Assembly (NCBI GenBank): GCA_017798145.1
Contig: CP059069.1
Span: forward strand, 519,226 to 543,225
Length of the DNA stretch: 24,000 nt
Source of the DNA: Akkermansiaceae bacterium
GTDB taxonomy: Bacteria > Verrucomicrobiota > Verrucomicrobiia > Verrucomicrobiales > Akkermansiaceae
Reading direction: 5' to 3'
This document shows, one piece after another, positions 1 through 18,311 of this stretch. Made by a program: the position numbers and the translations under genes. The notes below the pieces were generated by a model, which saw nothing but the letters and a program-made list of their open reading frames with translations, was not told the origin of the DNA and did not search any database. How positions within the stretch are numbered: the stretch's first letter is position 1; each line of letters begins with the position of its first letter.

Positions 1-1
1 T

Positions 2-751
2 CCGGAGCGCAACTTCCAACCCGTCCGCTCGCCCGGAGAAAACCGCTGGGCTGATGGCTCCGGAGCATGGGACCTGTTGCTGGGAGAGCGGATGGATCTG
101 GAATGGTTCGAGGAGGAACCGTTCGCCGATCTTGGACTGGGAGTGGTGCCTCGCTACCAGAGCTACTTCGAGGTGCCGAATCGGTCATTGTTAGGAATGA
201 TCATTGATCGAGCCCTTGAGCGCGGGGAGGATGACATCGACAAGCTATTCCCGGACGACATTTCCGATTTGGACACCATTGTCCGGCGTTCAAGGGTTCA
301 GCTGGTGAGGGAGGATAGCGATCTGCCCATGATGCCCTGCGATGTAGGAATCGGCGTATCACAGGCGCTACCAGTGGCGATCGGTGCCATGGCTCCCGGC
401 TACCGGATTCTCGCGGTTGAGCAACCCGAACTCCACATCCACCCGGCAATCCAGTGCAACCTTGGCGATTTGCTGGCGAAGCAAGTCATCAAGGACGAGG
501 GGCGAACCATGCTGCTGGAGACCCACAGCGAGCACCTGATCCTGAGGATGCTCCGCCGCATCCGGGAAAACACCGAGGGAACCCTCGATGACGACAAGCC
601 GGCATTGGTGCCGGAGCACCTTTCCGTCCTGTGGGTCGAGCAGCACGGGGGCGTTGTGGCCATCAAACCCATTCCTGTGAATCCCCAAGGCGACTTCGAT
701 GAAGAGTGGCCGAAGGGCTTTTTCGAAGAACGCTTCGACGAATACGAATGA
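2..751 (+). CDS. ABC/OLD-type AAA ATPase, C-terminal part (5' end outside the window)
   Basis: Frame 2 is open from the first base (PERNFQPVRSPGENRW...), so the track ORF starting at TTG 77 is probably the tail of a longer gene. It has a Walker-B-like LAVEQPELHIHP and an H-loop-like MLLETHSEHLILRMLRR, the signature pair of AAA_15/AAA_21/OLD-type ABC ATPases. The C-terminal tail resembles DUF3696 from memory. Confidence 0.75.
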   Translation, partial: PERNFQPVRSPGENRWADGSGAWDLLLGERMDLEWFEEEPFADLGLGVVPRYQSYFEVPNRSLLGMIIDRALERGEDDIDKLFPDDISDLDTIVRRSRVQLVREDSDLPMMPCDVGIGVSQALPVAIGAMAPGYRILAVEQPELHIHPAIQCNLGDLLAKQVIKDEGRTMLLETHSEHLILRMLRRIRENTEGTLDDDKPALVPEHLSVLWVEQHGGVVAIKPIPVNPQGDFDEEWPKGFFEERFDEYE

Positions 752-760
752 CCCGCGACC

Positions 761-1687
761 ATGATCAAAATCATCGCAGTACATCCGGACGTCATGTCCA
801 CCCCCGAGGGGATCCGTGAGTATCTCAAGGATTTCGGCACCGGCAAGGGACGTTGGATCCCGCTTGTCCCATCAAACTGGAAGTCTATCGTTTCTCAGGC
901 CATCAAGGGCAATCATTCGCTCGGGCCGATCAAAAGAAACACGCTTCGCGACAAGATAACGAATCCGAGTTTCTGCGACAAATACCTGAAGGTCGATCTG
1001 GTTGATGGTGACGGTAGGGAGTGGGGCCAGATCGTTAAGGAATTCTGTGATCTTGGCACATTTGATGCCGCCATCGTCAACGGAGAGTTGAACGCCGGAG
1101 AGAAGTCGCTCAAGGCCTATGAATTTGATCCGGACAGCGACCTGTATGCTGTCCGCATTTCCGGATTTGTTTCCCGTGACCCCGAGGAACTCGCAAGACA
1201 GGTGGCACCCGGCCTCCGCTTTGCGAAGGAATTGCACGTGATCGACGTCTATTGCAAGAGCCGGGGAACCAACTGCGCATCATACGGAAAATTCTTTCGC
1301 GGGTTGCTGGACACATGCAGACAGACCAACCCCGCGTTGACGTCAATCACCCTGCACATGAAAGAGCCGGATGACTTCGACCGGAGACGGGAGGAAGCAA
1401 ACTATAGGTCATGGGTGAGCCACTTCCTGCGATCTGGAGAGACATTGAAAATCCGCTACCTGAAGGAGCGCCAGGACGGTGAGAGGATGCACCTCCGCGC
1501 CGTTTTCACCGATAACCTGCTGATCACCGGCCATTACGGCTTCGGCTCCGGCTCAAGCGAATCCGAGACAACCGACCTCACCCTCAGGGAACACAGCGAC
1601 CTGATTGCGATCCGCAACCTCTACCTGAGTGATGACAAGATCGGATTTGACCTGATGGAACAGATCGAAATCGGCTCTAATTCCTGA
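761..1687 (+). CDS. hypothetical protein (308 aa), second gene of the ATPase-PLD operon
   Basis: ATG lies 9 nt after the ATPase stop. It is the longest ORF here and has protein-like composition. I recognise no family. Near the C-terminus there is an HKD-like string, MHLRAVFTDNLLITGHYGFGSG. Confidence 0.6.
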   Translation: MIKIIAVHPDVMSTPEGIREYLKDFGTGKGRWIPLVPSNWKSIVSQAIKGNHSLGPIKRNTLRDKITNPSFCDKYLKVDLVDGDGREWGQIVKEFCDLGTFDAAIVNGELNAGEKSLKAYEFDPDSDLYAVRISGFVSRDPEELARQVAPGLRFAKELHVIDVYCKSRGTNCASYGKFFRGLLDTCRQTNPALTSITLHMKEPDDFDRRREEANYRSWVSHFLRSGETLKIRYLKERQDGERMHLRAVFTDNLLITGHYGFGSGSSESETTDLTLREHSDLIAIRNLYLSDDKIGFDLMEQIEIGSNS

Positions 1688-1710
1688 AATCCAACCCATC
1701 ACCGCAGCCC

Positions 1711-3369
1711 ATGATCAAAAGCAAAAGCTTCCTCCCCCGATGGACCAAACGCGTCACAATGGAAGGCAGTGGCCGCGATCCTCTCGGCCTTACCCGCGTA
1801 TCGGATGAGTTCACGGGCTTCCTGCTTCCCTCCATCATAACCATCACGCCACGGGCTCGCTATTTCTCCTTTTACACTTGGGCGATCCGGGAATGCCGAC
1901 AGGCTTTCGAGGAGGGCGATTTGCGAACCTTCGACGAGCGCCTGCGCTGTATCGATACTGCCTTCGCGATCAGTTCCCGCTTTGGGCGGACGACGGATCT
2001 CACCATTACCGGGATCGACAAGGTGAACGCCAGGCTGCCTGATCCATCCTCGGAAGAACCTATCGACGTTCTCTTTCCCGTTCTACCCTCCAGTGAGCGG
2101 GGAGCCTTCGGCCAAGCCTATGGAAGCTCAATCGATCATCTCGGGCTCATTCAGTGGAGTGAGGAGGAAGATTGGAAACTGAGGCCCGGTAGGGGCGACA
2201 AACTGGCCGCCGCCTTCTCCGGAGCCATTAGCCGCACCCCCTACGTGCTGGATGGGCACACCGGCGGGCAATGGATCCCTCCCTCCGTCCTGAGAGACTC
2301 CGCCAAATCCTTCAGCCTCGATGCGATTCGCCAGCCCGGGGCAAAGGCCGAGCGTGAAATCCTCACCCGCATCTTTTTCGACCTCGACGACGAAGAGACC
2401 ACCAACTCTCGGAGTCACCGCCAGGCCACGCTCGGCCTGTTGCTCCATGTGCTGAGCGCTTATGACAAGATCGGTGCCCTGCCCAATCGCCGGGACGTCA
2501 ACAGCTCTTGCATCTTCTGGCCCCACTACTACGGCGGGCTCTATGTCGATGGCGCGCTTTCGGTTCCCTACCAGCCTCTTCCTTGCTTCGAGGAAACACG
2601 TGAATACTGGCGCCAGTTCTGCCTTCACCAGTTTTTCCTGTATGCGGCGGAACAATTTCTACAGGCCATGCTCGATGCCATGGCAACTCAACCCGATGGA
2701 GTGTCCAGGGACGGGATGCTGGAGGCTATGCTGCAGGCCGGCTTCGTTGAGGATCTTGAGCGGGTCATGGAGCGGAAAACCCCGGGGCCGAACGATCTGC
2801 TCGACTTTTTCAGAACTGGCGACGCCCCGGAATCCGTCCAGCAACAATTCTCGTGCGACCACCCCCTCAGCGAGGGCTGGATCCATTATCAGGATCCAAA
2901 CGCGGACAATCCTGAGGCTCCTGTAACCCGGCTCGGGCGTGCATTCGCAATCTGGGCTCAGCTTTATGCCAAGTGGCGAAACAGTGACGACCCCGCACTT
3001 CTTGATGTAGCCGAACGCGCCAGCCAGGAGTGGTGGGTCGGCACGCTTTTCGAGTGGGGGGATGAATGGCACGATGAAAACCCCGATTGGCCCACCACCC
3101 TGCGCCGATTGATCGATGTCTTTGTGTCGCGACATGAGCAGATTCGTTTCCACAAGGGCAAACTCGACGCCGCCTGGTTCGAGGTTCTAGGCGGGCGCTT
3201 CTCCCAGATCCAAGATCTTACGCTGGACTTCCGGGCATCCCGTCATCCACAAGTCGCCACTGTGTTCCAGGATCTCTGTCTACTGGAGGATGGGACTCTC
3301 AATGAGCCCCTGAAACCAACTGAATGGGCGCGCAAAATCCTGGATGAAGTAATCCGCTCACGGTCATGA
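1711..3369 (+). CDS. hypothetical protein (552 aa), third gene of the ATPase-PLD operon
   Basis: ATG lies 23 nt after the upstream stop, and its stop overlaps the next start (ATGA at 3366-3369). The N-terminal motif is GRDPLGLTRVSDEFTGFLLPSIITITPRARYFSFYTW. No family recognised. An alternative start at M17 (nt 1759) is possible. Confidence 0.65.
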   Translation: MIKSKSFLPRWTKRVTMEGSGRDPLGLTRVSDEFTGFLLPSIITITPRARYFSFYTWAIRECRQAFEEGDLRTFDERLRCIDTAFAISSRFGRTTDLTITGIDKVNARLPDPSSEEPIDVLFPVLPSSERGAFGQAYGSSIDHLGLIQWSEEEDWKLRPGRGDKLAAAFSGAISRTPYVLDGHTGGQWIPPSVLRDSAKSFSLDAIRQPGAKAEREILTRIFFDLDDEETTNSRSHRQATLGLLLHVLSAYDKIGALPNRRDVNSSCIFWPHYYGGLYVDGALSVPYQPLPCFEETREYWRQFCLHQFFLYAAEQFLQAMLDAMATQPDGVSRDGMLEAMLQAGFVEDLERVMERKTPGPNDLLDFFRTGDAPESVQQQFSCDHPLSEGWIHYQDPNADNPEAPVTRLGRAFAIWAQLYAKWRNSDDPALLDVAERASQEWWVGTLFEWGDEWHDENPDWPTTLRRLIDVFVSRHEQIRFHKGKLDAAWFEVLGGRFSQIQDLTLDFRASRHPQVATVFQDLCLLEDGTLNEPLKPTEWARKILDEVIRSRS

Positions 3370-5558
3370 AGGAAGAGGATAAAGACATCGATCTGCACAA
3401 GCGCTTCAAGCGCAATGTCTACGATCACGCACTGGTGGCCACCTTCACCTTCAGCCCTCGGTTTTTTGAGGAATACATGCTTGAGCGCTTCAAAGCCCTC
3501 CAAGGCAAAGGCGGCGTCACCGTATTTTTGGATCGCGGCCAGTATGAGGAAATCATCGAGGCAGCGTCCAGGGGTAACGGCTGGACGCCAAAGCTGGCGA
3601 ACCGACGCTACCTGCTGCATCCCATCTCGGTTCACGGGGTTTTTCACCCGAAAGTGTTCCTTCTCAGCTCAGCGAATCGCGGTCTTCTGGTCGTAGGTAG
3701 CGCGAACTTTTCGCAGGATGGACTCGGCGGCAATGCCGAGTTGGTCTCGGTCTTTGAGTTTGAGGCGGGGAAAAAGGAGGAAGCCCTTCCGCTTTTCCAA
3801 TCCGCCTTCCGCTTCTTCGAGGAGCTCTCCGGCCGCTGGCCGGGTAAGGAGGTGGCATCGAATGTCGATGAAGTCCGCAGGGATGCGCCGTGGCTTACCG
3901 AGACACCCGATTCTCCTGTCTCTGATTCGTTGCCCACCCTCCTGCACAACCTGGATCATGCGCTATGGCCACAGATCGTCGATGGCCTCGGCTCTGTCGA
4001 TGAAATCAGTTTGGTCTCCAGGTTCTTCGACAGCTCGCCCGCCATACTTGATTCAATCTGCAGGGGTCTGGGCACTCCGAAATTCAAAATCCACACCCAA
4101 CCAAAGCGAGGCACCCTCACACCGGATTGGCTAAGCCACCCTTTTGCCCGGGACGAGAGGCTCAGCATTCGCCTCTGCCAATACGGTGACGGCGAACACT
4201 ACCAACCACTCCACGCTAAAGGCTATGCGCTCACCAAAGGCAGCAAGACCACTCTGGCGATCGGTAGCGCGAACTTCAGCACGTCAGCCCTGCTCAGGCC
4301 TGCGGCATCGGGCAACGTCGAAGCCATGCTCCTCTATCCGCCGGTGACCAAGAGTTCGCTCGACGCGGACAAACTCTTCGATCCCCTGGGGTCTGCCAAG
4401 AAAGTCACCCATCCGGAACAACTCGCGGTTCCAGCGGACGCAGAGTTCGAACCGACACACACCGCGAGTTCGTTCTCAATCCTTCTCGAAGAGGCAAGGT
4501 TGGAAGAAAGCGTGCTAATCCTTTCAACGAAGGCGCAGGAACCGGGACTTTCCTGCCGCCTCTCACAGGCGAATGTGGCGTCCACGGTGCTCCCCGTGGG
4601 TGCAATTCGCCAGTTTGACACCCGACTCGAACCTCCAGCAAAGTGGATCCGAAGAATGTCCGAATCTCCTACGGTCGCCCAGCTTGTGCGCTACAAGGGA
4701 GATTCCTGGGAGGCCGTCAGCAATCCAGTCTTGGTTGCCGCCATCTTCGACCCCGAAACAGGCAAGGGAGCCCGCCAGAGTCGGCGACTCCGGGAGGCTG
4801 TGGAAAGTCCGCAACGCTTCATGGGTGTACTTCGCGAACTCTGTGAAGGCAATGATGAAGCTGCCCTGAAGAGCTTTCTGGCCAACTGCAACATTCCCAT
4901 TGATCTGAATCTACGCACCATCAGACCGGGCAAGCATAGAACTGCATCCACAGATGGCCCTCCAACTGGGTTTGGTGATCTGGGCGGACGCAATCTCCGA
5001 CACTTCGAACAGCTTCACGACGCAGCCATAGCTTTTGCCCGTCGCCACCGCACTCGCCTCTCACGGCATGTTGAGAACGGCACTGCCCGCAGCATCCCGA
5101 ACTTTCTCCACATTCTTGAAACCTTGATCTTGCTTCTGTTCAGTCAGATCGAGCGAGCCAAAGAAGGTTTGACTGCCGAGGCTCGGACAACGCTCAGCGC
5201 GGACGAATGGAAGGAGTTTCGTGAGCACCTGTCTGAATACTATCAGGAAATCGAGAAGCTCCTCGAACTGACCGTTAAGGATTACTTGCCAGGCTTACAC
5301 AAAAACGAGCGAAGAATAACTGTCCATGAGGCTTTCGGAGACGCTCCCGAAACCCTGCTCGGAATCTGCACCAAAGCCATCGCCGCCCGCCAAGAAATCG
5401 CAAAGGCGCTGGACACCAGCGTTTACGTTCAGGTCGACAACTACACCACCCAGAAGGCTCGCTTTTTCCACACCCTCCTCAGTGATGAGAAATGGAAACG
5501 CTATTTCTTCACCCTCAAGGATCTGGCCGAGGAATTGAGAAAAGGTGTCGCAGCATGA
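3366..5558 (+). CDS. PLD-superfamily (two-HKD) nuclease-like protein with a ~400-aa C-terminal domain of unknown function
   Basis: Two HxK...GSxN motifs: FHPKVFLLSSANRGLLVVGSANFS (H94 at nt 3645) and LHAKGYALTKGSKTTLAIGSANFS (H283 at nt 4212). The start overlaps the upstream stop by 4 nt. The C-terminal half looks helical and matches no motif I know. Confidence 0.85.
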   Translation: MKEEDKDIDLHKRFKRNVYDHALVATFTFSPRFFEEYMLERFKALQGKGGVTVFLDRGQYEEIIEAASRGNGWTPKLANRRYLLHPISVHGVFHPKVFLLSSANRGLLVVGSANFSQDGLGGNAELVSVFEFEAGKKEEALPLFQSAFRFFEELSGRWPGKEVASNVDEVRRDAPWLTETPDSPVSDSLPTLLHNLDHALWPQIVDGLGSVDEISLVSRFFDSSPAILDSICRGLGTPKFKIHTQPKRGTLTPDWLSHPFARDERLSIRLCQYGDGEHYQPLHAKGYALTKGSKTTLAIGSANFSTSALLRPAASGNVEAMLLYPPVTKSSLDADKLFDPLGSAKKVTHPEQLAVPADAEFEPTHTASSFSILLEEARLEESVLILSTKAQEPGLSCRLSQANVASTVLPVGAIRQFDTRLEPPAKWIRRMSESPTVAQLVRYKGDSWEAVSNPVLVAAIFDPETGKGARQSRRLREAVESPQRFMGVLRELCEGNDEAALKSFLANCNIPIDLNLRTIRPGKHRTASTDGPPTGFGDLGGRNLRHFEQLHDAAIAFARRHRTRLSRHVENGTARSIPNFLHILETLILLLFSQIERAKEGLTAEARTTLSADEWKEFREHLSEYYQEIEKLLELTVKDYLPGLHKNERRITVHEAFGDAPETLLGICTKAIAARQEIAKALDTSVYVQVDNYTTQKARFFHTLLSDEKWKRYFFTLKDLAEELRKGVAA

Positions 5559-5650
5559 CCTGCGCCGCCTGACGACTTAGGCAATCTGAATACTTTCAGT
5601 GTCATAATAATCTGACCAAGGCACCTGCCTGACCTCATCCAACCTCAAGA

Positions 5651-5688
5651 AGCCCGCCCGGCCTGTGCCGTGGCGGGCTTTTCGTTTC
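5651..5688 (+). terminator. intrinsic terminator after the PLD gene
   Basis: AGCCCGCC (5651-5658) pairs with GGCGGGCT (5672-5679), with extra inner pairs, followed by TTTTCGTTT. Confidence 0.6.
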
Positions 5689-5713: not shown

Positions 5714-5983
5714 ATGATTCCACATCTCCACAGACACATCCCCCATCCCTGCCAGCCCATGCTGCGCACCCATCGCCGTTTCCCAAATCGGAAATGGTTT
5801 CTGATCCCGCTCGCGGGGTTCGCCTTGGTGCTCGCGCTTGCATCCTGCTCGGAGCCTGCGCCCAAGCCGCCTCCGATCCCGGTTACAACAAATACTGAGC
5901 CCGTGGGCGAAGGCCTGAAGGTCATCGCATTCGCCATGCTTGGCGCGTCCGTCGTAGTCGTCCTCGGGAAGATGATCCGCTGA
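5714..5983 (+). CDS. small putative lipoprotein / membrane protein (89 aa, or 74 aa from ATG 5759)
   Basis: From M16 the sequence reads MLRTHRRFPNRKWFLIPLAGFALVLALASC: a basic n-region, a hydrophobic core and an LASC lipobox. A second hydrophobic segment, VIAFAMLGASVVVVLG, lies at the C-terminus. A CA-rich leader sits upstream. Confidence 0.45.
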   Translation: MIPHLHRHIPHPCQPMLRTHRRFPNRKWFLIPLAGFALVLALASCSEPAPKPPPIPVTTNTEPVGEGLKVIAFAMLGASVVVVLGKMIR

Positions 5984-6426: not shown

Positions 6427-6966
6427 ATGGCAATCAAACTAATAGCAAACTACTCGAAGCGCTTAGGCCTTCCTGGGTTCAGCAGTCACCAGTTCTCCGT
6501 CTCGGTGGAAACTGAGCTGAGTGCTGCCGACGACATCGCCGCCGAGTCCACGCGTCTCTATCACCTCCTCCAGTCCAACGTGGACGAGCAGATGCTCCGC
6601 ACGGGATTCGTCCCGCCGACCGACTACGGCATGGATCCGCCTGCGGATTCCGCCGCAACGCAACGCGGCGATTCCACACCGTCCAACGTCACCACGGTTG
6701 CCAACTGGCAGCGTGGTCCGGCTTGGAAATGTTCCGACAAACAGAAGGATCTGATCCTGAAACTTGTCGACGAGCACCAGCTCGACAAGGATGACGTCGA
6801 GGCACTCGCCAACGAGCGCTTCGGAAAAGGCGTCCGCCTGCTCAACAAGGTGGAGGCATCCGGGCTCATCGACGAGCTGCTCGACACGCATGGCTCCGGC
6901 CAGCGCCAGGGCAACCGCCGCAACGGCTCGGCCTACCGCCGATCCAACGGGAGGGACGCCGCATGA
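6427..6966 (+). CDS. hypothetical protein (179 aa), translationally coupled to the Cas4-like nuclease
   Basis: ATG is preceded by a CA-rich leader, and the stop overlaps the next ATG (ATGA 6963-6966). The C-terminal part, WKCSDKQKDLILKLVDEHQLDKDDVEALANERFGKGVRLLNKVEASGLIDELL, is followed by a basic tail. Family not recognised. Confidence 0.65.
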   Translation: MAIKLIANYSKRLGLPGFSSHQFSVSVETELSAADDIAAESTRLYHLLQSNVDEQMLRTGFVPPTDYGMDPPADSAATQRGDSTPSNVTTVANWQRGPAWKCSDKQKDLILKLVDEHQLDKDDVEALANERFGKGVRLLNKVEASGLIDELLDTHGSGQRQGNRRNGSAYRRSNGRDAA

Positions 6967-7823
6967 CCGCGACAGCTACCCCACCGGAAGCGCCGTTCAC
7001 AACCGGGCTGACACCCTGGGCACAGACGTTGCCCGGACACATCAGCCCGTCGGCGGCGAAAGCCTACCTCGGCTGCTCGCTCAAGTTCTACTACGAGCGG
7101 GTGGCCTGCATCCGCAAGGCGACCCCTGTCGCCCTACACCTCGGCAAGGCGGTGCATGCCGCCCTGCAGTCGTTCCACCTCGCCCGCTGGCGGGGTGGCG
7201 ACGATTCACCTGAGACCGTCGCCGCTGCCTACGAGCTGGCCTTCCAGCAACTCGAACGCGACGAAGGGCCGGTGAACTACAAGGACACGTCCGAGCGGGA
7301 GAAAGCCCGTCAGGACGGCCTGCGCGTGGTTGCCGCCTACCTCGACTCCCCGGAGGCGATGAAGGAGAAGCCGCGTGCGGTGGAAGTCCTGCTCAAGGAG
7401 GACATCCCTGGCCTGTCCGTCCCCCTCACCGGGGCAATGGATCTGGTCGAGGGCGACTTCACGGCAGTGGATTTCAAGTCCGCCGCCGCGAAGCCCGACC
7501 CGGCCAACGCGGCCTTCGATCATGAGATCCAACTTGTCAGCTACCAGCTGCTGATGGAGGCCGCCACCGGCGAAACCCCTCCATCCCTCGATCTGGTTTT
7601 CCTAGTGAAGACCAAGACCCCGCAGGTCATCCGGGTGAAATCCAGACCCGCCGATGAGCACCGAAAGCGCCGGGTCATAGCCTTGCTGGAGACTGCCGTC
7701 CAAGGCATCTCCGAAGACAGGTTCCACCCGCAGCCAGGCATGCACTGCTCGTGGTGCCAGTTCCGCAACGAGTGCGCCCAGTGGCTACCCGGCATGGACT
7801 GGCATGCGAAGAAAGCAGCGTAG
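6963..7823 (+). CDS. PD-(D/E)XK nuclease, RecB/Cas4-like with a 4-Cys (Fe-S) signature
   Basis: It has GAMDLVEGDFTAVDFKS (D...DxK core), a QLVSYQLL (QxxxY) motif, an N-terminal Cys (YLGCSLKFYY, C38) and C-terminal CSWCQFRNEC (C262-x2-C-x5-C, nt 7746 onward). This is the Cas4/AddB-type cysteine arrangement. Confidence 0.85.
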   Translation: MTATATPPEAPFTTGLTPWAQTLPGHISPSAAKAYLGCSLKFYYERVACIRKATPVALHLGKAVHAALQSFHLARWRGGDDSPETVAAAYELAFQQLERDEGPVNYKDTSEREKARQDGLRVVAAYLDSPEAMKEKPRAVEVLLKEDIPGLSVPLTGAMDLVEGDFTAVDFKSAAAKPDPANAAFDHEIQLVSYQLLMEAATGETPPSLDLVFLVKTKTPQVIRVKSRPADEHRKRRVIALLETAVQGISEDRFHPQPGMHCSWCQFRNECAQWLPGMDWHAKKAA

Positions 7824-11492: not shown

Positions 11493-12515
11493 ATGAATCC
11501 AACACCACACACCAACCAAACCCTCCTCGAAGGCATCTGCCGACGCGGAGTCCTTGTCGCAACATCCGTCCGTTACTGGCGGGGTTGCAAGCGGCTCAAT
11601 CCCGAAGACCTCGGCCTTGATCCCGCGCACGTTTCCGACCGGCTCATCCAGCTCGGTCACAAACGCCTGATCCCCCGTGATGCGCTCTCGGCCTTCGCCC
11701 TGATCGAGTCCCGGACAAACGCCTCCGTGGAGTCTTCGAGCTTTCCCTTCCTGGGAGGCATCGGACGCTTCGTGCCGAACCCCCGGCTCGGCGACCTCAC
11801 CGACAAGCTCAACCAGCTCCGTGAGGAGTTCCGCGAGGCCACGCTCGACTTCGTCGCAGGTTACGCACCCCTGCGTGATGCCGCGATGGAGGAGTGGCGC
11901 GAAGCCGCCCAGCACCTCAACGGAAGTGCAGAGCGCCTGATCGCAACCATCGAGCAGTCGTTCCCGCCCGCCGGGGAGATCGCCAAGCGCTTCGCCTTCG
12001 AGACACGCTTGTTCCAGATTGCCGCCCCCGACCACATCCGCCTGGAAGTGGCCGACGGCATGGAGCGGCTTGAAGTCGCCGACGACCGCCGCCGCATTGC
12101 GGAGGAGGCATCGCGCCGCCTTCAGTCCGACCTCGACGGCTTCATCCGCGAGAGCGTCGCCTCGATGCGTGAGGAAACCGCCCGGCTCGCCGGAGAGGTT
12201 CTCGCCACCATCGACGGATCGGAGAACGGAGTCCACCAGCGCACGCTGAACAGGCTCACCACGTTCATCGACAGCTTCCGTTCGTTGAACTTCGCCGGAG
12301 ACCAGCAGCTGGAGCAAACGCTCGAACGCTTCCGCCGCGACCTGCTCACCCGCAGCGCGGAGGACTACCGCAACGACAGTGCGGCGATGGGCAGCCTCAC
12401 CCAAGGGCTCGCCCGCCTCCGCGAAAACGCCGTCCAGCTCGCCCGCAGCGACGCCCGCGAACTCGTCTCCCGCTTCGGACAGATGGGATCGCGCAGGCTC
12501 GCAGCGGTGAGCTGA
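11493..12515 (+). CDS. DUF3150-like protein (plasmid/ICE-associated family, function unknown)
   Basis: The N-terminus, VLVATSVRYWRGCKRLNPEDLGLDP...LIQLGHKRLIPRDALSAFALIESR...FPFLGGIGRFVPNPRL...LREEFREATLDFVAGY, matches the DUF3150 pattern as I remember it (W-G-x-K-x-L-x-x-EDLGL ... LG-x-K ... FL-G). It is chosen over the longer antisense ORF on composition and on its CA-rich leader. Confidence 0.65.
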   Translation: MNPTPHTNQTLLEGICRRGVLVATSVRYWRGCKRLNPEDLGLDPAHVSDRLIQLGHKRLIPRDALSAFALIESRTNASVESSSFPFLGGIGRFVPNPRLGDLTDKLNQLREEFREATLDFVAGYAPLRDAAMEEWREAAQHLNGSAERLIATIEQSFPPAGEIAKRFAFETRLFQIAAPDHIRLEVADGMERLEVADDRRRIAEEASRRLQSDLDGFIRESVASMREETARLAGEVLATIDGSENGVHQRTLNRLTTFIDSFRSLNFAGDQQLEQTLERFRRDLLTRSAEDYRNDSAAMGSLTQGLARLRENAVQLARSDARELVSRFGQMGSRRLAAVS

Positions 12516-12608
12516 GACTGGCACCACTACTGGCAGCCCGGTGGAAGTTTGATCTTCCGCCGGGTTGCCTCTACTTTCGATCCAACCCCAACATGGAGAC
12601 CACACCCC

Positions 12609-13178
12609 ATGCCCTACATCCGCAAAACATCCCGCAAACCCGGACGCCACTTCGTCACCCTGGACCGCCTCACAGAGGCCAACTGGCAGGTGACCGTGGA
12701 AATGGACAAGCTCGGTCTCTGGTGCGACGAACTCTATGAGATCGACGTATGGCTCGTGCCCGTTTCCTTCTGCTGCTACGGCTGGTTCCAACCGGAGGGC
12801 GACATCTACATCCCGGCTGTGACCGGAGCCAACCTATCCGATTTCATCACCAGCCATCACACACGCCTTACCGACGTCCTGCGCCACGAGTGGTCGCATG
12901 CGCTGGCCGACCGCCGGCCGGAGCTGGTCGATAGCAAACGCTTCGTCCGCACTTTCGGCGGCGACTACGATTCGCGCCACCCCGTCCGGGATCACGACCC
13001 GGATCACCACCTGACGCCCTATGCCGCCACAAGCCCTTGCGAGGACTTTGCGGAAACCTTCCACTACTACATCCGGCACAAGGGAAGGCTGCCGCTGCGC
13101 CTCGCCAACAAGACTAAGATCGCCCGCAAGTGGGAGTTCATCGAGTGGATGGCGGGTAGGATTTCTAAAGCAATCTGA
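12609..13178 (+). CDS. putative zinc metallopeptidase (HExxH)
   Basis: HEWSH lies at nt 12885-12899, with a downstream SPCEDFAETFHYYI segment typical of small zincin-like peptidases. ATG 12609 (MPYIRKTSRK) is preferred over the track's TTG 12549 because the leader word CAACCCCAACA sits 15 nt upstream, as at other starts. Confidence 0.7.
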   Translation: MPYIRKTSRKPGRHFVTLDRLTEANWQVTVEMDKLGLWCDELYEIDVWLVPVSFCCYGWFQPEGDIYIPAVTGANLSDFITSHHTRLTDVLRHEWSHALADRRPELVDSKRFVRTFGGDYDSRHPVRDHDPDHHLTPYAATSPCEDFAETFHYYIRHKGRLPLRLANKTKIARKWEFIEWMAGRISKAI

Positions 13179-13220
13179 TACTGTTCGCCCCGGCCGACAG
13201 GATCGCCCAAACTCCACATC

Positions 13221-13925
13221 ATGAAATGCCTCACTTGGAACCTCGAATGGACGAACCCGGCCAGCCGCCGGGCAAGTTTGATCAATGAACTCATCTCCGG
13301 GATCGATCCGGACGTCATCTGCTACACGGAGGTCAACAAGGACATGGTGCCAGCAGGGCACATCATCGAGGCCGATGCCGATTATGGCTATCCAATGAAA
13401 CCTGGTCGCAGAAAGGTTCTGCTCTGGAGCAAGTATCCCTGGACGCAACCCGATGCCTACGGGGATGACGAGTTGCCGAGCGGAAGGTTTGCCATGGGCG
13501 TGTGTAGAGGGATCCGCTTCGTCGGAGTCTGCATTCCTTGGCGTGATGCCCATGTGAAGACAGGGCGGCGCGACCGTGCCCCTTGGGAGGATCACATTTC
13601 CTATTGCGCAGGCCTCGGGCGCATCCTCCGGCAGCATGCCGCCGATGCGGAGCCGCTCTGCGTTTTGGGGGACTACAACCAACGAATCCCCAGGGTCAGC
13701 CAGCCGATAAATGTCGCCCAGGCTCTTGCCGAGGAGATTCCGGATGATTTTCGGATAGCTACAGCCGGTGCAACCGACCTCGAAGGCCTGAACCTCATCG
13801 ACCACATCACCGTATCAGCGGGACTTGAAATCTCGGTCACCGGATTTCTGCCGAGAACCTCCGAAGACGGAACCCACCTTTCCGACCATTCGGGAGTCGT
13901 GGCAGAACTCCAAGCCCTCGACTGA
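13221..13925 (+). CDS. endonuclease/exonuclease/phosphatase (EEP) family protein
   Basis: Motifs are in canonical EEP order: MKCLTWNLEW, DVICYTEV, VLGDYNQRI, IDHITVS and LSDHSGVVAEL. Confidence 0.85.
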   Translation: MKCLTWNLEWTNPASRRASLINELISGIDPDVICYTEVNKDMVPAGHIIEADADYGYPMKPGRRKVLLWSKYPWTQPDAYGDDELPSGRFAMGVCRGIRFVGVCIPWRDAHVKTGRRDRAPWEDHISYCAGLGRILRQHAADAEPLCVLGDYNQRIPRVSQPINVAQALAEEIPDDFRIATAGATDLEGLNLIDHITVSAGLEISVTGFLPRTSEDGTHLSDHSGVVAELQALD

Positions 13926-13974
13926 GCCATCGTCCAGCGGATCAAATCCGCGAGCCTCTACGGCCTCATTTCCG

Positions 13975-14007
13975 AGCCCGCCCGGTCACCAACCCGGCGG
14001 GCTTTTT
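13975..14007 (+). terminator. intrinsic terminator after the EEP gene
   Basis: AGCCCGCC(C)GG pairs with CCGGCGGGCT (one bulge), followed by TTTTT. Confidence 0.65.
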
Positions 14008-14030
14008 CGTGCCGTAGTTGCGGCATCTCC

Positions 14031-14180
14031 ATTTCCCCAGCCAGCCCACTACACCTCCCGTCACATTACTCCGCCCCAACCAGCCTGAATTTTAAACCAC
14101 CACCAATCCCACCACCAATCCCACCACCTCCAACGAAACCACCCGACCCAACCCCACTGCCAAAACACAACGACTCATCC
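14031..14180 (+). promoter_or_regulatory. G-depleted, C/A-rich untranslated tract (rut-like leader or ncRNA body)
   Basis: My hand count gives about 11 G in 150 nt. The tract lies between a terminator (13975-14007) and a second terminator-like hairpin (14186-14225). No plausible ORF is present. Confidence 0.35.
14097..14129 (+). repeat. 12-nt tandem repeat CCACCACCAATC, about 2.7 copies
   Basis: CCACCACCAATC occurs at 14097-14108 and 14109-14120, followed by the partial copy CCACCACCT. Confidence 0.8.
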
Positions 14181-14185
14181 GCACG

Positions 14186-14225
14186 AAGGGCGGCTCCATA
14201 CCGGGGCCGCCCTTTGTGCGTTTCC
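14186..14225 (+). terminator. terminator-like / attenuator hairpin in the leader of the DUF1257 operon
   Basis: AAGGGCGGCTCC pairs with GGGGCCGCCCTT (about 12 bp including one G-U), followed by TGTGCGTTTCC. It lies 36 nt upstream of ATG 14261 and downstream of an already complete terminator. Confidence 0.5.
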
Positions 14226-14260
14226 AGCAAAACAACAACCAACCAAATACGAACAACCAC

Positions 14261-14650
14261 ATGTCACACTTCACCACCATCCAGACCCAGATCCGGGATC
14301 TTGAAGCCTTGCGCGACGCATCCGTCGAACTCGGCCTCCAGCTCCTGGCTGATACCCAGTGCCGGGGCTACGCCGGCATTACCCGTCCCGCACCGCACGT
14401 CATCAAGCTCAAGGGCCCGTATGACATCGCTGTCGAGCCGGACAAGGAGAACCCCGGCTGCTACGGCCTCACCACCGACTGGTGGGATGGGCACGTCGCC
14501 AAGGAAGTCGGCACCGGCTACAGCCGCCTGCTGCAATCCTACGGCGTCCACAAGACCATGCGCGAGGCCGCCACACGCGGGCTGCGCCACACCCGCAGGA
14601 TCGAGGCCGACGGCACCGTCCTGCTCACCCTGGAAGGAGGTTCGCTATGA
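14261..14650 (+). CDS. DUF1257 (Ycf35-like) protein
   Basis: MSHFTTIQTQIRDLEALRDASVELGLQL... is the characteristic DUF1257 N-terminus as I remember it. ATG 14261 is preceded by the leader word CAACAACCAAC. The stop overlaps the next ATG. Confidence 0.8.
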   Translation: MSHFTTIQTQIRDLEALRDASVELGLQLLADTQCRGYAGITRPAPHVIKLKGPYDIAVEPDKENPGCYGLTTDWWDGHVAKEVGTGYSRLLQSYGVHKTMREAATRGLRHTRRIEADGTVLLTLEGGSL

Positions 14651-14847
14651 GCCGCAAGATCCTTGTCCGTGTTTCCCCAGCCGGGGAGATCAGCGTCGAG
14701 GCCGAGGGCTTCCAGGGAAAAGGCTGCGAGGCCGCCACCAAGGCGATCGAGGACGCACTCGGGAAACCCCAGGCGCGCACCCGCAAGCCGCAGTTCTGGC
14801 GACCCCAGTTCCTCCGCAACGAACAACAGCTAGGAGGCGAGGGATGA
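14647..14847 (+). CDS. DUF2997-like small protein (66 aa)
   Basis: MSRKILVRVSPAGEISVEAEGFQGKGCEAATKAIEDALGKPQARTRKPQF matches the remembered DUF2997 pattern (beta-hairpin, G-x-G-x-x-C, LG, basic tail). ATGA overlaps occur at both ends (14647-14650 and 14844-14847). Confidence 0.75.
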   Translation: MSRKILVRVSPAGEISVEAEGFQGKGCEAATKAIEDALGKPQARTRKPQFWRPQFLRNEQQLGGEG

Positions 14848-15140
14848 AATCCACCCTCCGCTTCAACCCCGGCGGTCACATCGACTGCCTCTACACCGAA
14901 GCGATCGATCTCCGTGCGCTCGGGCGACTTCATGTCGTCCGGGCCACGGACATCCGTTTCTGTGAAAAGACCCAACTGTGGAAAGTCCGCTGTGCCTCGT
15001 CCGGCCAGCTCCTCCACAGCGATCCCTCCCGCGAGGCATGCCTCGTCTGGGAACATGAAAACCTCGGCCCACCCAATCCGGAACCACCGAGACCCACCGG
15101 CACACTGCCAAACCTCAGACCGGTCACAGGCCGGCTCTGA
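14844..15140 (+). CDS. hypothetical small protein (98 aa)
   Basis: This is the C-terminal 98 codons of track ORF 14214-15140, starting at the ATG that overlaps the DUF2997 stop: MKSTLRFNPGGHIDCLYTEAIDLRALGRLHVVRATDIRF... It is wedged between two recognisable genes of the same operon. Confidence 0.55.
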   Translation: MKSTLRFNPGGHIDCLYTEAIDLRALGRLHVVRATDIRFCEKTQLWKVRCASSGQLLHSDPSREACLVWEHENLGPPNPEPPRPTGTLPNLRPVTGRL

Positions 15141-15163
15141 CAACCAAGAACCAATCCAAACTT

Positions 15164-16690
15164 ATGAACCTCACCACCTACCTCCGCGCCGGATACCCCG
15201 GCCTCGCCATCATCAGTTCCGAGGAAGCTCGTGCCGAAGCGGAAATCGCCAACGCATGCACTTCCCTGAAACGCAAACTCCTCGCCTGGTCCTCCACGGA
15301 GGGTCTTGCCGATGTTAAGGAAGGGCGCGTCACCCCGTGCCCCGACCCACTCGATGCCTTCCAGCTTCTGGACGGCGTCTTCGCCTCGGACAAGCCACGC
15401 CACGTCGTGCTGCTCCGGGATCTCCAACTCCACCTCGACCAGAGCGACCCCATGCTCGTGCGCCGCATCAAGGACGCACTGCGCATCGCCAAGGCCAACG
15501 GCCACACCATCGTCCTGCTCGGCTGCCGTTTGAAACTGCCCGCCGAACTCGAACACGAGATCACCCACGTTGATTTCGACCTGCCCGACCCGGCGGGGCT
15601 TCACACCGTGCTCGATGGCATCATCAAGTCGGCGAAGCTAAAGAATGTCCACGAGGTGATGCGGGAGGCAGCCGTCCAGGCAGCCCTCGGCCTCACCACC
15701 ACGGAAGCGGAGAACGCGTTCGCCCTGTCGGTCATAGAGACCAATGGGATCGACCACCGCATCATCTCCCGTGAAAAGGCGAACACGCTGAAACGAAACG
15801 GCCTCGTCGAGGTCGTCGGGAACGCCACCTCCCTGGAGGACATCGGCGGACTCGGCCTGCTCAAGGAATGGCTGCAACGCCGCTCCGGTGCATTCAGCGA
15901 ATCCGCGAAAGCCTACGGGCTGCCCGCACCGAAAGGATTACTCATCGTCGGCATCCCCGGCACCGGGAAATCGCTCACCGCGAAAGCCACCGCCGGAGCA
16001 TTCGGCCTGCCGTTGCTGCGCCTCGACATGGGGCGTGTGTTCGGTGGCATCGTCGGCCAGTCGGAAGCCAACCTCCGCTCCGTCATCCAGACCGCCGAGG
16101 CCATCGCCCCGTGCGTGCTGTGGATCGATGAAATAGAAAAAGGCTTCTCCGGAAGCTCTTCGAGCGGCAGCACCGATGGCGGCACCTCCTCCCGTGTCTT
16201 CGGCTCGTTTTTGAGTTGGATGCAGGAGAAGACCAAGGCGGTGTTCGTCGTGGCGACGGCGAATGATGTTTCCAAGCTCCCGCCCGAGTTCCTGCGCAAG
16301 GGAAGGTTCGACGAAATGTTCTTCGTAGATTTACCCGACGCCTTCGAGCGTGCGCAGATCTGGGACATCGTCATCGCCCGGCACAAGCGCAAGCCAACCG
16401 ACTTCGACACCGTCGTCCTCGCCCGCGCCTGCGAGCAGTTCACCGGGGCGGAGATCGAGGCCGTGTTCATCGACGCCATGCACGAGGCCTATGCCGAAGG
16501 CGAGGAACCCAAGCCCAAGCACATCCTCGAAGCCATCAACGGCACCGTCCCCCTGGCGCAGCTCATGGACGGCAAGATCGCCGCGTTGAGACATTGGGCG
16601 AAAGGCCGTGCCCGTGAGGCAGCGAGCCGGAGCAACACCACGTCGTCGGCATCCTACCGCCCCAACAGACGGATGTCCGGGATGAACTGA
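15164..16690 (+). CDS. Ycf46-like AAA+ ATPase
   Basis: Walker A is GIPGTGKS (nt 15950-15973; K269 at 15968) and Walker B is CVLWIDEIEKGF. The region GGTSSRVFGSFLSWMQEK...VFVVATANDVSKLPPEFLRKGRFDEMFFVDLP closely follows the Ycf46 family sequence as I remember it. The length (508 aa) and a non-AAA N-terminal domain also fit. Confidence 0.9.
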   Translation: MNLTTYLRAGYPGLAIISSEEARAEAEIANACTSLKRKLLAWSSTEGLADVKEGRVTPCPDPLDAFQLLDGVFASDKPRHVVLLRDLQLHLDQSDPMLVRRIKDALRIAKANGHTIVLLGCRLKLPAELEHEITHVDFDLPDPAGLHTVLDGIIKSAKLKNVHEVMREAAVQAALGLTTTEAENAFALSVIETNGIDHRIISREKANTLKRNGLVEVVGNATSLEDIGGLGLLKEWLQRRSGAFSESAKAYGLPAPKGLLIVGIPGTGKSLTAKATAGAFGLPLLRLDMGRVFGGIVGQSEANLRSVIQTAEAIAPCVLWIDEIEKGFSGSSSSGSTDGGTSSRVFGSFLSWMQEKTKAVFVVATANDVSKLPPEFLRKGRFDEMFFVDLPDAFERAQIWDIVIARHKRKPTDFDTVVLARACEQFTGAEIEAVFIDAMHEAYAEGEEPKPKHILEAINGTVPLAQLMDGKIAALRHWAKGRAREAASRSNTTSSASYRPNRRMSGMN

Positions 16691-16735
16691 CCCGCGCCGT
16701 AGCTGTGGCATCCTGCCGCATGCCCCATAATATCC

Positions 16736-16768
16736 CTGCCAGGGAGAGTTCCATCCTCTCTCTGGCAG
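16736..16768 (+). terminator. strong hairpin after the AAA+ gene (probable terminator, weak U-tract)
   Basis: CTGCCAGGGAGAG pairs with CTCTCTCTGGCAG (13 bp including one G-U, 7-nt loop). The tail is CATGCCTTTCCC. Confidence 0.45.
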
Positions 16769-17004
16769 CATGCCTTTCCCTCTCAAAACTCCCGCACCCA
16801 ACCCTTCCTAACTCCCCGCCACCCATCCCTCAAGAGCGCTCGGCAGCGCGGCTTACAAAGCCGTGATCCTCACCTCCCACCTCACTCGATACCTCCAGCG
16901 GTAGTCTGAACACAAGCGCCGTTGAACGAAACAGCTGGGGTGCACCCGAAAGGCCGCCCCAAGTCGCTTGTGCGGGGAAAGAAAAACGGTAAAAGAGCAA
17001 AAGG

Positions 17005-18027: not shown

Positions 18028-18204
18028 AAAGAAGGGCTACAAGTGACCCTCTAGAAAACAGAAAACGTGCCGGATCACAAGAGATTTAGAGGGGCGTTTT
18101 TGAGGCTGAAGGCCTGCCCACCGAAGACGGCACGATGCCCAATTTCCCCTGCATGACAGACCCGCCCCGCACGACGTGCACAAGCGCGGCGCGGGTCACG
18201 ACAA

Positions 18205-18256: not shown

Positions 18257-18311
18257 AACCCCTCTCACCACGAGAACCAAACCAACAACCAACCCCAATC
18301 CATACCAAAAA

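What the first reader, a model, noticed from the sequence alone, without database searches (positions are those of the whole stretch)
1..5688. ATPase + two unknowns + two-HKD PLD nuclease operon: candidate uncharacterised defence system
Four co-oriented genes are packed with gaps of 9 nt, 23 nt and a 4-nt ATGA overlap, and end at a clean terminator (5651-5688). Gene 1 is an ABC/OLD-type ATPase (Walker B EQPELHIHP, H-loop ETHSEHL), the class used by Septu PtuA, Gabija GajA and PARIS AriA. Gene 4 has two HxK...GSANFS motifs, marking it as a PLD nuclease, plus about 400 aa of unknown helical sequence. Genes 2 (308 aa) and 3 (552 aa) match nothing I recognise. As far as I recall, the combination does not fit the gene content of Septu (ATPase+HNH), Gabija (ATPase+UvrD), PARIS (ATPase+Toprim), Lamassu (SMC-type LmuB), DISARM (needs a DrmA/B helicase and a methylase) or Mokosh (helicase+PLD). 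An NTPase sensor/motor, adaptor proteins and a nuclease effector is the standard logic of abortive or degradative immunity. The operon is cut at the left edge, so more genes may lie upstream.
Basis: partly seen in the sequence, partly recalled or inferred. Interest (0 to 1): 0.78.

Follow-up and report, generated by a model that had tools for sequence, protein, structure and literature searches.

The report
Two adjacent two-gene anti-phage cassettes
The four tightly packed genes are most likely not one new defence system but two independent two-gene modules side by side: a Menshen/HEC-03-type ATPase with a hidden PLD-fold effector, and a widespread, unnamed relative of the Azaca PLD nuclease pair that has no helicase.

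Summary
There are four co-oriented ORFs (…-751, 761-1687, 1711-3369, 3366-5558) with gaps of 9 and 23 nt and a 4-nt overlap, two intact HKD motifs, and a terminator at 5651-5688.

The reading as a single four-gene system is not supported. Each half recurs elsewhere without the other.

Genes 1+2: gene 1 is an ABC ATPase with a DUF3696 tail (PADLOC PDC-M55A 1e-27, Menshen NsnB 7e-22, HEC-03 ATPase 4e-20). Its 308-aa partner has a predicted C-terminal PLD fold (NucT, MITD1 MIT_C) and an invariant H-x-R-x4-D motif. This matches the PB-PLD1 class of Menshen NsnC effectors. No ParB-DUF262 sensor (NsnA) lies upstream in any of the homologous loci examined.

Genes 3+4: these are distant relatives of Azaca ZacA and ZacB. 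The pair sits together in 67 of 78 species genomes found, across many phyla and on plasmids. It is often embedded in type I R-M or DISARM-like loci. It has no conserved helicase or other third gene.

The nearest relatives of each pair (83% and 90-94% identity) lack the other pair.

Verdict: a defence island holding two new variants of known kinds. The helicase-less Azaca-like pair is the part worth testing.

The parts
2..751 (+). Gene 1, the 3' part only (C-terminal 249 aa). NsnB-like ABC ATPase with signature motif, Walker B, H-loop and a DUF3696 helical tail. The N-terminal ~280 aa (Walker A) lie beyond the window edge.
   Evidence: AAA_15 8.7e-6, AAA_21 3e-5, DUF3696 1.4e-4. (PDC-M55A 1e-27, NsnB 6.8e-22, HEC-03B 3.6e-20, weaker GajA/AriA). 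The full-length 530-aa homologue in L001 is 72% identical and carries Walker A GANSAGKS.
761..1687 (+). Gene 2, 308 aa. Partner and putative effector of the ATPase. The N-terminal alpha/beta domain (~1-140) is modelled at lower confidence. The C-terminal PLD-fold domain (~140-308) has invariant E157, D162, H244, R246 and D251 (HLRAVFTD).
   Evidence: Family of only 26 proteins. Alignment A2. AF2 model with pLDDT 72 overall and 80-92 in the C-domain. Foldseek PDB hits: NucT 6ehi, MITD1 4a5z/2ymb, PLDs, PLD3/4. No Pfam hit in any of the 25 members.
1711..3369 (+). Gene 3, 552 aa. All-alpha partner of the PLD nuclease. Distant ZacA/DUF6361 relative through its N-terminal GRDPLGL…RARY(F/Y)SFY region. 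No NTPase motif.
   Evidence: ZacA 6.3e-6 and DUF6361 0.028. All 67 family members hit ZacA and essentially nothing else. AF2 pLDDT 89, pTM 0.89. No PDB fold match (best E 0.13). 2186 clusters at 50% identity with E<=1e-3.
3366..5558 (+). Gene 4, 730 aa. Two-HKD PLD-superfamily nuclease (aa ~20-330) plus a ~400-aa C-terminal extension. ZacB relative. Its start overlaps the stop of gene 3 by 4 nt.
   Evidence: PLDc_2 2.9e-9. ZacB 3.2e-17 over aa 277-497, PDC-M27B 1e-9, DrmC 8e-4. Catalytic H/K/G-S-x-N/N-x-E of both motifs is invariant in 61 homologues. No Walker A.
5651..5688 (+). Intrinsic terminator ending the co-oriented gene block.
   Evidence: 8-bp GC-rich stem AGCCCGCC/GGCGGGCT followed by TTTTCGTTT.

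Best explanation
Window 1-5688 is a piece of a defence island. It holds two independent two-gene cassettes that happen to be adjacent and are probably co-transcribed.

Cassette A (genes 1+2) is a Menshen/HEC-03-type system reduced to transducer plus effector.
- Shown: an NsnB-like ABC ATPase with a DUF3696 tail, followed after 9 nt by a 308-aa protein whose C-terminal domain has a PLD/MIT_C-like fold with an H-x-R-x4-D motif.
- Inferred by analogy with the predicted NsnB4-NsnC2 complex and with the solved Septu and PARIS complexes: the ATPase oligomer clamps the N-terminal domain of gene 2 between its DUF3696 tails and keeps the effector silent. A phage cue changes ATP binding or hydrolysis, and this releases or activates the PLD-fold phosphodiesterase against nucleic acid.

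Cassette B (genes 3+4) is a helicase-less relative of Azaca.
- Shown: a ZacA-like helical protein, translationally coupled by a 4-nt overlap to a ZacB-like nuclease with two intact HKD motifs. The pair is conserved as a unit in many phyla. It has no NTPase of its own and no conserved third gene.
- Inferred: the two proteins form a complex in which gene 3, together with the long C-terminal extension of gene 4, supplies target recognition. The HKD site cuts invading DNA through a phosphohistidine intermediate. The complex may work as an NTP-independent, possibly modification-dependent, restriction module. Where it is embedded in type I R-M or DISARM-like operons, it may cooperate with the neighbouring translocase.
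For: Independence of the two halves:
- The closest gene 2 homologue (83%, L001) has the ATPase and nothing like genes 3/4.
- The closest gene 3/4 homologues (90%/94%, L003) have no ATPase or gene 2.
- Five further cassette-A contexts lack genes 3/4.
- In 67 of 78 species-level genome loci, gene 3-like is immediately followed by gene 4-like. Seven more loci are cut by a contig end. Only one locus (L051) also has an NsnB-like ATPase pair, and there a 184-aa gene and an Mrr-like type IV enzyme separate the two pairs.

Cassette A identity:
- PADLOC hits for the window fragment are PDC-M55A 1e-27, NsnB 7e-22 and HEC-03 ATPase 4e-20. Full-length homologues score better, up to PDC-M55A 6e-49, NsnB 2e-42 and HEC-03 ATPase 2e-35.
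- DUF3696 tail.
- Gene 2 PLD fold, with NucT and MITD1 among the top Foldseek hits. The Menshen paper reports the same structures for the PB-PLD1 effector class, which has an HDR motif (PMC12065111). The L051 homologue reads HDR.
- HEC-03 (ABC ATPase + PIN protein) is an experimentally validated two-gene defence in which both genes are required (10.1101/2024.01.29.577857).

Cassette B identity:
- ZacA is the only consistent PADLOC hit for all 67 family members.
- ZacB 3e-17 and invariant HKD residues.
- Neighbourhoods include type I R-M in about 15 loci and SNF2/Eco57I-type methylase/DEAD-MZB genes in about 12.
- Plasmid copies exist.
- Azaca cleaves T4 DNA only when ZacA, ZacB and ZacC are all present (10.1101/2025.07.10.664194).
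Against: - In the window the two cassettes are only 23 nt apart, with no predicted terminator between them. They are probably one transcript, so cross-talk cannot be excluded.
- L051 shows a second co-occurrence of distant versions of both cassettes in one island.
- The window is cut inside gene 1, so an upstream NsnA cannot be excluded for this genome.
- The gene 3 to ZacA link rests on about 50 N-terminal residues and falls below Pfam's threshold.
- The N-terminal domain of gene 2 was not shown to be PIN-like. Its model there has pLDDT 42-76, mostly below 70.
- Gene 2 has H-x-R where PLD enzymes have H-x-K. Catalysis by MIT_C-like domains has not been demonstrated.
- Azaca needs its helicase in vitro, so a helicase-less pair might be inactive alone.
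- There is no experimental evidence of defence for either cassette.
Confidence: 0.7

Rival explanations
1. One integrated four-gene system. The gene 1 ABC ATPase replaces the missing ZacC helicase as the NTPase that licenses the ZacA/ZacB-like nuclease, and gene 2 acts as adaptor or second effector.
For: The genes are tightly packed and co-oriented, with one terminator after gene 4. Cassette B has no NTPase of its own, while Azaca requires one. A distant ATPase/gene 2-like pair and a gene 3/4-like pair share one island in L051.
Against: The nearest relatives of each pair lack the other. Of the 67 gene 3/4 genome loci, 66 have no such ATPase. Six other cassette-A contexts lack genes 3/4. In L051 the pairs are separated by two unrelated genes, one of them an Mrr-like enzyme.
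Confidence: 0.12
2. Cassette A is a canonical three-gene Menshen whose NsnA (ParB-DUF262 sensor) lies just upstream of the window edge. Cassette B is still a separate neighbour.
For: Menshen gene order is NsnA-NsnB-NsnC, and the window is cut inside the NsnB-like gene (PMC12065111). The ATPase matches NsnB, and the effector matches the PB-PLD1 class.
Against: None of the homologous loci has a DUF262 gene upstream of the ATPase. The upstream gene is a ~190-aa protein after DRT2 in L001 and L088/89, HsdR-like in L085-87, HsdS in L051, and small ORFs in L002 and L090. The only nearby DUF262 protein (L085) lies downstream and is a full-length HEC-05/BrxU-type match at 2.5e-48, against NsnA at 3e-9.
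Confidence: 0.12
3. The genes have non-defence roles, for example PLD proteins in lipid metabolism or a plasmid/ICE maintenance function.
For: PLD-superfamily members include lipid enzymes. MITD1's MIT_C domain binds membranes (established knowledge; cited in PMC12065111). The window downstream looks like mobile-element cargo.
Against: Neighbourhoods are overwhelmingly R-M and defence genes. Gene 4's closest profiles are the nucleases ZacB, DrmC and NgoFVII. No signal peptide or membrane segment was noticed by eye in any of the four proteins; no predictor was run. The ATPase belongs to the defence-specific NsnB/HEC-03 clade.
Confidence: 0.03

Closest known systems
Menshen (NsnA-NsnB-NsnC; Millman 2022; Li et al. 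NAR 2025, PMC12065111)
   Same: Gene 1 is an NsnB-type ABC ATPase with a DUF3696 helical tail. Gene 2 follows immediately, as NsnC does. Its C-terminal PLD/MIT_C-like domain carries an H-x-R motif and gives the same structural neighbours (NucT 6EHI, MITD1 2YMB) as the published PB-PLD1 effector class.
   Different: No ParB-DUF262/ParBDB sensor NsnA is seen upstream in any homologous locus. The window itself is cut there. Gene 2 hits no PADLOC NsnC model. Its N-terminal domain was not shown to be an inactive PIN.
HEC-03 and PDC-M55 (PADLOC candidates; Payne et al. bioRxiv 10.1101/2024.01.29.577857)
   Same: Two-gene logic of ABC ATPase plus effector, often embedded in R-M/Hma-type loci. The ATPase is homologous (HEC-03 model 4e-20, PDC-M55A 1e-27). 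HEC-03 is experimentally validated, and both genes are required.
   Different: The HEC-03 partner is a VapC-like PIN protein. Gene 2 does not hit that model and carries a PLD-fold domain. PDC-M55 also includes a DUF262 protein (M55C), which is absent here.
Azaca (ZacA DUF6361, ZacB PLD nuclease, ZacC SF2 helicase)
   Same: Gene 3 is a ZacA-like helical protein and gene 4 a ZacB-like two-HKD nuclease, in the same A-then-B order. ZacA and ZacB are the best PADLOC hits for the whole family.
   Different: There is no ZacC helicase in the window, and no conserved helicase across 67 loci. Gene 3 is 552 aa against the ~396-position ZacA profile and matches only its N-terminal ~50 residues. Gene 4 is 730-900 aa against ~586 and matches ZacB only partially. 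The scores lie far below those expected for true members.
DISARM DrmC and PLD-type restriction endonucleases (NgoFVII/BfiI)
   Same: HKD nuclease chemistry. The gene 3/4 pair often sits in SNF2 + Eco57I-type methylase + DEAD/MZB (DrmD/DrmMI/DrmA-B-like) loci, roughly where DrmC would be.
   Different: The matches are weak (DrmC 8e-4, NgoFVII 7e-4). Gene 4 is three to four times longer than DrmC and always comes with the gene 3 partner. No DISARM genes are present in this window.
Septu, PARIS and Gabija (ABC ATPase + nuclease)
   Same: The general architecture is an ABC ATPase oligomer controlling a bound nuclease. There are weak ATPase hits to AriA and GajA.
   Different: The effectors differ (HNH, Toprim), and the ATPases have a different C-terminal domain, not DUF3696.

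Membership tests
Menshen | NsnB: ABC ATPase followed by a DUF3696 alpha-helical tail | tested here: met
   Pfam AAA_15/AAA_21 plus DUF3696. PADLOC NsnB 6.8e-22 on the fragment and up to 1.6e-42 on full-length homologues.
Menshen | NsnA: ParB-DUF262 + ParBDB sensor gene directly upstream of NsnB | tested here: not met
   This cannot be read in the window, which is cut inside gene 1. In all seven homologous contexts (L001, L002, L051, L085-87, L088-89, L090) the upstream gene is not a DUF262 protein.
Menshen | NsnC: a gene immediately downstream of NsnB with a C-terminal nuclease/effector domain | tested here: met
   9-nt gap. The C-terminal PLD fold has NucT and MITD1 among the top Foldseek hits. 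The invariant H-x-R-x4-D motif corresponds to the published PB-PLD1 class.
Menshen | NsnC N-terminal inactive PIN-like (Rossmann-like) domain that docks between DUF3696 tails | tested here: inconclusive
HEC-03 | Two-gene system: ABC ATPase plus VapC-like PIN protein | tested here: not met
   The ATPase model hits at 3.6e-20. Gene 2 hits no PADLOC model at all, including the HEC-03 partner.
Azaca | ZacA (DUF6361) protein | tested here: inconclusive
   ZacA 6.3e-6 over aa 19-68 only. DUF6361 0.028, at 13.8 bits against a cut-off of 25. All 67 family members hit ZacA, best 9e-12. Gene 3 is a homologue of the N-terminal region, not a member by threshold.
Azaca | ZacB two-HKD PLD nuclease encoded after ZacA | tested here: met
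   ZacB 3.2e-17 (partial: profile positions 293-509). Both HKD motifs are invariant. Gene order with a 4-nt overlap.
Azaca | ZacC SF2 helicase in the operon, required for DNA cleavage | tested here: not met
   No helicase lies in the co-oriented gene block before the terminator at 5651-5688, and none appeared among the downstream window ORFs scanned against Pfam. There is no Walker A in genes 3 or 4. No conserved helicase neighbour was found across 78 loci. Where helicases are present they are HsdR, SNF2, DEAD-MZB or UvrD types from adjacent systems.
DISARM | DrmA helicase + DrmB (DUF1998/MZB) + DrmC PLD with a methylase | tested here: not met
   Only weak DrmC hits were found (7.7e-4 PADLOC; NCBIfam 18.7 bits against a cut-off of 133). 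No DrmA, DrmB or methylase appeared among the window ORFs examined.
Septu / Gabija / PARIS | ABC ATPase paired or fused with an HNH or Toprim nuclease | tested here: not met
   ATPase hits to GajA and AriA are weak (1e-6 to 1e-7) and limited to the Walker B region. No HNH or Toprim domain was found in genes 1-4.

The most novel reading that the evidence does not exclude
The gene 3+4 pair represents a large, unnamed, NTPase-free two-component PLD restriction module. It consists of a ZacA-like recognition subunit with no match in the PDB and a long two-HKD nuclease. It is spread across bacteria, at least one archaeon and plasmids. It is repeatedly embedded in type I R-M and DISARM-like operons. 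It is absent from Pfam and from PADLOC v2 as a system. It would work either alone, for example on modified DNA, or by borrowing the neighbouring translocase.
Probability: 0.5. Interest if true: 0.6.

Novelty: new variant of a known kind. Interest (0 to 1): 0.45.

Why it matters
Cassette B suggests that the Azaca nuclease core (ZacA-like + ZacB-like) exists far more often without a helicase than current models capture. The gene 3 profile finds 2186 clusters at 50% identity, 374 of them at E<=1e-30. Genome annotation calls both proteins 'hypothetical'. Testing it would show whether a PLD defence nuclease can be targeted without an NTPase, and what the ZacA-type subunit, which has no match in the PDB, actually does. 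Published work found ZacA essential for cleavage but could not explain why.

Cassette A shows that Menshen-type ATPase-effector pairs occur without the ParB-DUF262 sensor, so the ATPase itself may sense infection. It also adds an orphan family carrying the MIT_C-like PLD effector.

For genome-scan practice, the case shows that tight packing in a defence island does not make an operon-sized 'system'.

Tried and rejected
- Extending the contig failed. Exact look-ups of gene 2 and of P0001 found no record. The source genome was not among the GTDB representatives returned. The ATPase fragment search did not return the native full-length protein.
- A metagenome scan with the gene 2 alignment found nothing.
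- Gene 2 has no sequence-level link to any Pfam family in any of 25 members, nor to PDB sequences. Only the predicted fold and the motif identify it.
- Gene 3 has no PDB fold match.
- Gene 4 has no PDB sequence match.
- I considered DRT2 + ~190-aa + ATPase + gene 2 as one unit, because it is seen in L001 and L088/89. I rejected it as a requirement: L002, L051, L085 and L090 lack the RT, and L003 has DRT2 + 188 aa without the ATPase.
- I considered whether the DUF262 protein after gene 2 in L085 is a displaced NsnA. It matches HEC-05/BrxU full-length instead.
- The Rfam and tRNA scans of the window were empty.

Full report
**Observation**

The ORF scan and the translation from the left edge confirm four co-oriented genes on the + strand:
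- gene 1: an open frame from the left edge to 751, of which 249 C-terminal codons are present;
- gene 2: 761-1687, 308 aa;
- gene 3: 1711-3369, 552 aa;
- gene 4: 3366-5558, 730 aa.

The gaps are 9 nt and 23 nt, and genes 3 and 4 share a 4-nt ATGA overlap. A GC-rich hairpin followed by a T-run lies at 5651-5688. The quoted motifs are all present: EQPELHIHP and ETHSEHL in gene 1, and H94-x-K96…GSANFS and H283-x-K285…GSANFS in gene 4.

**Source and setting**

Gene 2 is 100% identical to a hypothetical protein (HZ994_02180) of an Akkermansiaceae bacterium on a 4.39-Mb contig.

Immediately downstream of the terminator lies an overlapping pair of genes: a 179-aa ORF with no Pfam family and a 286-aa PD-(D/E)XK nuclease. 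Further downstream are DUF3150, an EEP-family nuclease, an AAA ATPase, an ATP-dependent ligase with a WGR domain and a Ser/Thr kinase. This gene content suggests a variable, mobile-element-like region, although no mobility gene was identified there. The Rfam and tRNA scans found nothing in the window.

**Genes 1 and 2 form a unit of their own**

The gene 1 fragment carries AAA_15/AAA_21 and the DUF3696 tail. In PADLOC its best matches are PDC-M55A (1e-27), Menshen NsnB (6.8e-22) and the HEC-03 ATPase model (3.6e-20). GajA and AriA score only about 1e-6. Full-length homologues of 530-652 aa carry Walker A and score up to 6e-49 against the same three models.

Gene 2 belongs to a very small family: 26 clusters among 5.8 billion sequences. 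No member has a Pfam hit, and there is no PADLOC or NCBIfam hit. The alignment shows invariant E157, D162, H244, R246 and D251, so HLRAVFTD is an H-x-R-x4-D motif.

The AlphaFold model is confident in the C-terminal half. That half matches PLD-fold proteins in the PDB: NucT (6ehi), MITD1 MIT_C (4a5z, 2ymb), bacterial PLDs and PLD3/4. The Menshen domain survey (PMC12065111) describes NsnB as an ABC ATPase with a DUF3696 tail. It describes NsnC as an inactive-PIN N-domain plus a variable C-terminal effector. One effector class, PB-PLD1, resembles MIT_C (2YMB) and NucT (6EHI) and has an HDR motif. A distant gene 2 homologue in L051 reads HDR at the same place. Genes 1+2 therefore correspond to NsnB+NsnC.

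The defining sensor NsnA (ParB-DUF262) should lie upstream, where the window is cut. It is absent upstream of the ATPase in every homologous context I could read:
- L001 and L088/89: DRT2, then a ~190-aa gene, then ATPase and gene 2;
- L085-87: an HsdR-like helicase, then ATPase and gene 2;
- L051: HsdS, then ATPase and a gene 2-like protein;
- L002 and L090: small ORFs, then ATPase and gene 2.

The one nearby DUF262 protein (L085) lies downstream. It is a full-length HEC-05/BrxU-type match at 2.5e-48, against NsnA at 3e-9. A two-gene ABC ATPase + PIN system, HEC-03, has been shown experimentally to defend, with both genes required (10.1101/2024.01.29.577857).

**Genes 3 and 4 form a second, much more widespread unit**

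Gene 4 has PLDc_2, ZacB at 3.2e-17 and weaker PDC-M27B, PbeA and DrmC hits. Gene 3 hits only ZacA (6.3e-6, aa 19-68) and DUF6361 below threshold. All 67 aligned family members hit ZacA and essentially nothing else.

Zac proteins make up the Azaca system: ZacA (DUF6361), ZacB (PLD nuclease) and ZacC (SF2 helicase). In vitro, all three proteins and the helicase Walker A are needed to cleave T4 DNA (10.1101/2025.07.10.664194).

A scan of one genome per species returned 78 loci with a gene 3-like ORF. In 67 of them it is followed directly by a gene 4-like PLD protein of 700-960 aa. In seven more the contig ends there. The four exceptions include fragmentary or split copies. The hosts include Verrucomicrobiota, Acidobacteriota, Myxococcota, Chloroflexota, Bacteroidota, Pseudomonadota and an Archaeoglobaceae MAG. 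Copies also occur on plasmids, where RefSeq calls both proteins 'hypothetical'.

Both HKD motifs and their N-x-E partners are invariant in 61 gene 4 homologues. Neither protein has a Walker A. Clustering of all neighbours found no conserved third gene. The recurrent neighbours are type I R-M subunits (about 15 loci, with the pair often between hsdS and hsdR) and SNF2 + Eco57I-type methylase + DEAD/MZB genes (about 12 loci, DISARM-like).

The gene 3 model is confident (pLDDT 89, pTM 0.89) and all-alpha, but has no PDB fold match. The gene 3 profile finds 2186 clusters at 50% identity with E<=1e-3, 374 of them at E<=1e-30, and the listed hits are mostly ~550 aa. This is a large, unannotated family.

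**Are the two units one system?**

The closest relatives say no. L001 (gene 2 83%, ATPase 72%) ends after gene 2 and runs into housekeeping genes. L003 (gene 3 90%, gene 4 94%) has a methylase and unrelated ORFs upstream.

Only L051 (a Fibrobacterota SAG) carries distant versions of both pairs. There they are separated by a 184-aa gene and an Mrr-like type IV enzyme inside a type I R-M island. That is what modular shuffling in defence islands would produce. L051 was also found through gene 3, so it is not an independent sample of cassette A loci.

The 23-nt spacing and the absence of a terminator between genes 2 and 3 make co-transcription likely in this genome. I therefore leave 0.12 for a functionally integrated four-gene system in which the ABC ATPase stands in for the missing helicase.

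**Mechanism**

Cassette A:
- Shown: the domain identities and the gene coupling.
- Inferred by analogy with the predicted NsnB4-NsnC2 complex and with the Septu and PARIS structures: the ATPase oligomer holds the N-domain of gene 2 between DUF3696 tails, and it releases or activates the PLD-fold effector on infection.
- Open: whether the H-x-R site is catalytic. MIT_C-type domains have no demonstrated nuclease activity.

Cassette B:
- Shown: a strictly coupled helical partner plus an intact two-HKD nuclease, with no NTPase.
- Inferred: a g3-g4 complex cleaves foreign DNA through a phosphohistidine intermediate. Gene 3 and the ~400-aa C-terminal extension of gene 4 provide recognition. Azaca prefers glucosyl-hmC T4 DNA, and the pair is often embedded in R-M operons. 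A modification-dependent or translocase-assisted mode is therefore plausible but untested.

**Comparison and novelty**

Each half fails one defining test of its nearest named system. There is no NsnA for Menshen, at least in relatives. There is no ZacC for Azaca, either here or in 67 loci. The scores to ZacA and ZacB are far below member level. PADLOC v2, Pfam and NCBIfam do not recognise either pair as a system.

I class the locus as new variants of known kinds. It is not a categorically new four-gene system.

The most interesting element is the helicase-less Azaca-like pair, because it is abundant and unnamed, and because its recognition subunit has no match in the PDB.

Overall interest is 0.45. 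My confidence in the two-cassette explanation is 0.7.

Noticed in passing
L001:6371-8394; L088:4734-6688; L089:33-1987; L003:949-2903: A DRT2-type reverse transcriptase (PADLOC Drt2 4e-146 for L001) is always followed by a conserved ~185-200-aa ORF with no Pfam or PADLOC hit (35% identity between L001 and L003). In three loci this block sits directly upstream of the ATPase-gene 2 pair. In L003 it sits upstream of the genes preceding gene 3/4. DRT2 is usually described as a single-gene system, so the small ORF may be an unrecognised accessory.
   Followed up: partly
window 6427-7823: Just after the terminator there is another overlapping gene pair: a 179-aa ORF with no family (6427-6966) and a 286-aa PD-(D/E)XK nuclease (PDDEXK_1 8e-32, with a Cas4/RecB-like C-terminal Cys cluster). 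It could be a further defence or recombination module.
   Followed up: partly
window 11493-21924: The downstream genes look like mobile-element or stress cargo: DUF3150 (4.8e-25), a weak metallopeptidase-like ORF, an EEP-family nuclease, an AAA ATPase (1e-29), an ATP-dependent DNA ligase with a WGR domain, and a Ser/Thr protein kinase.
   Followed up: partly
L051:31-14162: A Fibrobacterota single-cell genome has one island holding type I R-M (HsdR/M/S), an NsnB-like ATPase, a distant gene 2-like protein (HDR motif), a 184-aa ORF, an Mrr-like type IV enzyme (PDC-S02 1e-48) and a gene 3/4-like pair. It is the only other place where both cassettes co-occur.
   Followed up: yes
L085:6776-8494 (also L086, L087): Here the gene after the gene 2 homologue is a 572-aa DUF262 protein matching HEC-05/BrxU at 2.5e-48 and PDC-M55C at 8.5e-29. 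This shows that PDC-M55 is a Menshen-like trio. It also shows that DUF262 enzymes do neighbour this ATPase family in some lineages.
   Followed up: partly
L002:10971-11729; L090:8496-9254: In the ~53%-identity branch of the gene 2 family, a conserved 252-aa ORF with no Pfam or PADLOC hit follows the gene 2 homologue in both loci. It may be a lineage-specific third component.
   Followed up: no
L040, L057, L081, L018, L022, L061 (neighbourhoods of the gene 3/4-like pair): In DISARM-like loci (SNF2 helicase, Eco57I/MmeI-type methylase, DEAD + MZB/DUF1998 helicase), the gene 3/4-like pair sits among these genes, roughly where a DrmC-type PLD gene would be expected. This suggests the pair may serve as an alternative nuclease module for such systems.
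   Followed up: partly
window 5714-5983: A small + strand ORF (89 aa) with a lipoprotein-like signal sequence (…LALASC…) lies in the gap between the terminator and the next gene pair. It is unverified as a gene.
   Followed up: no
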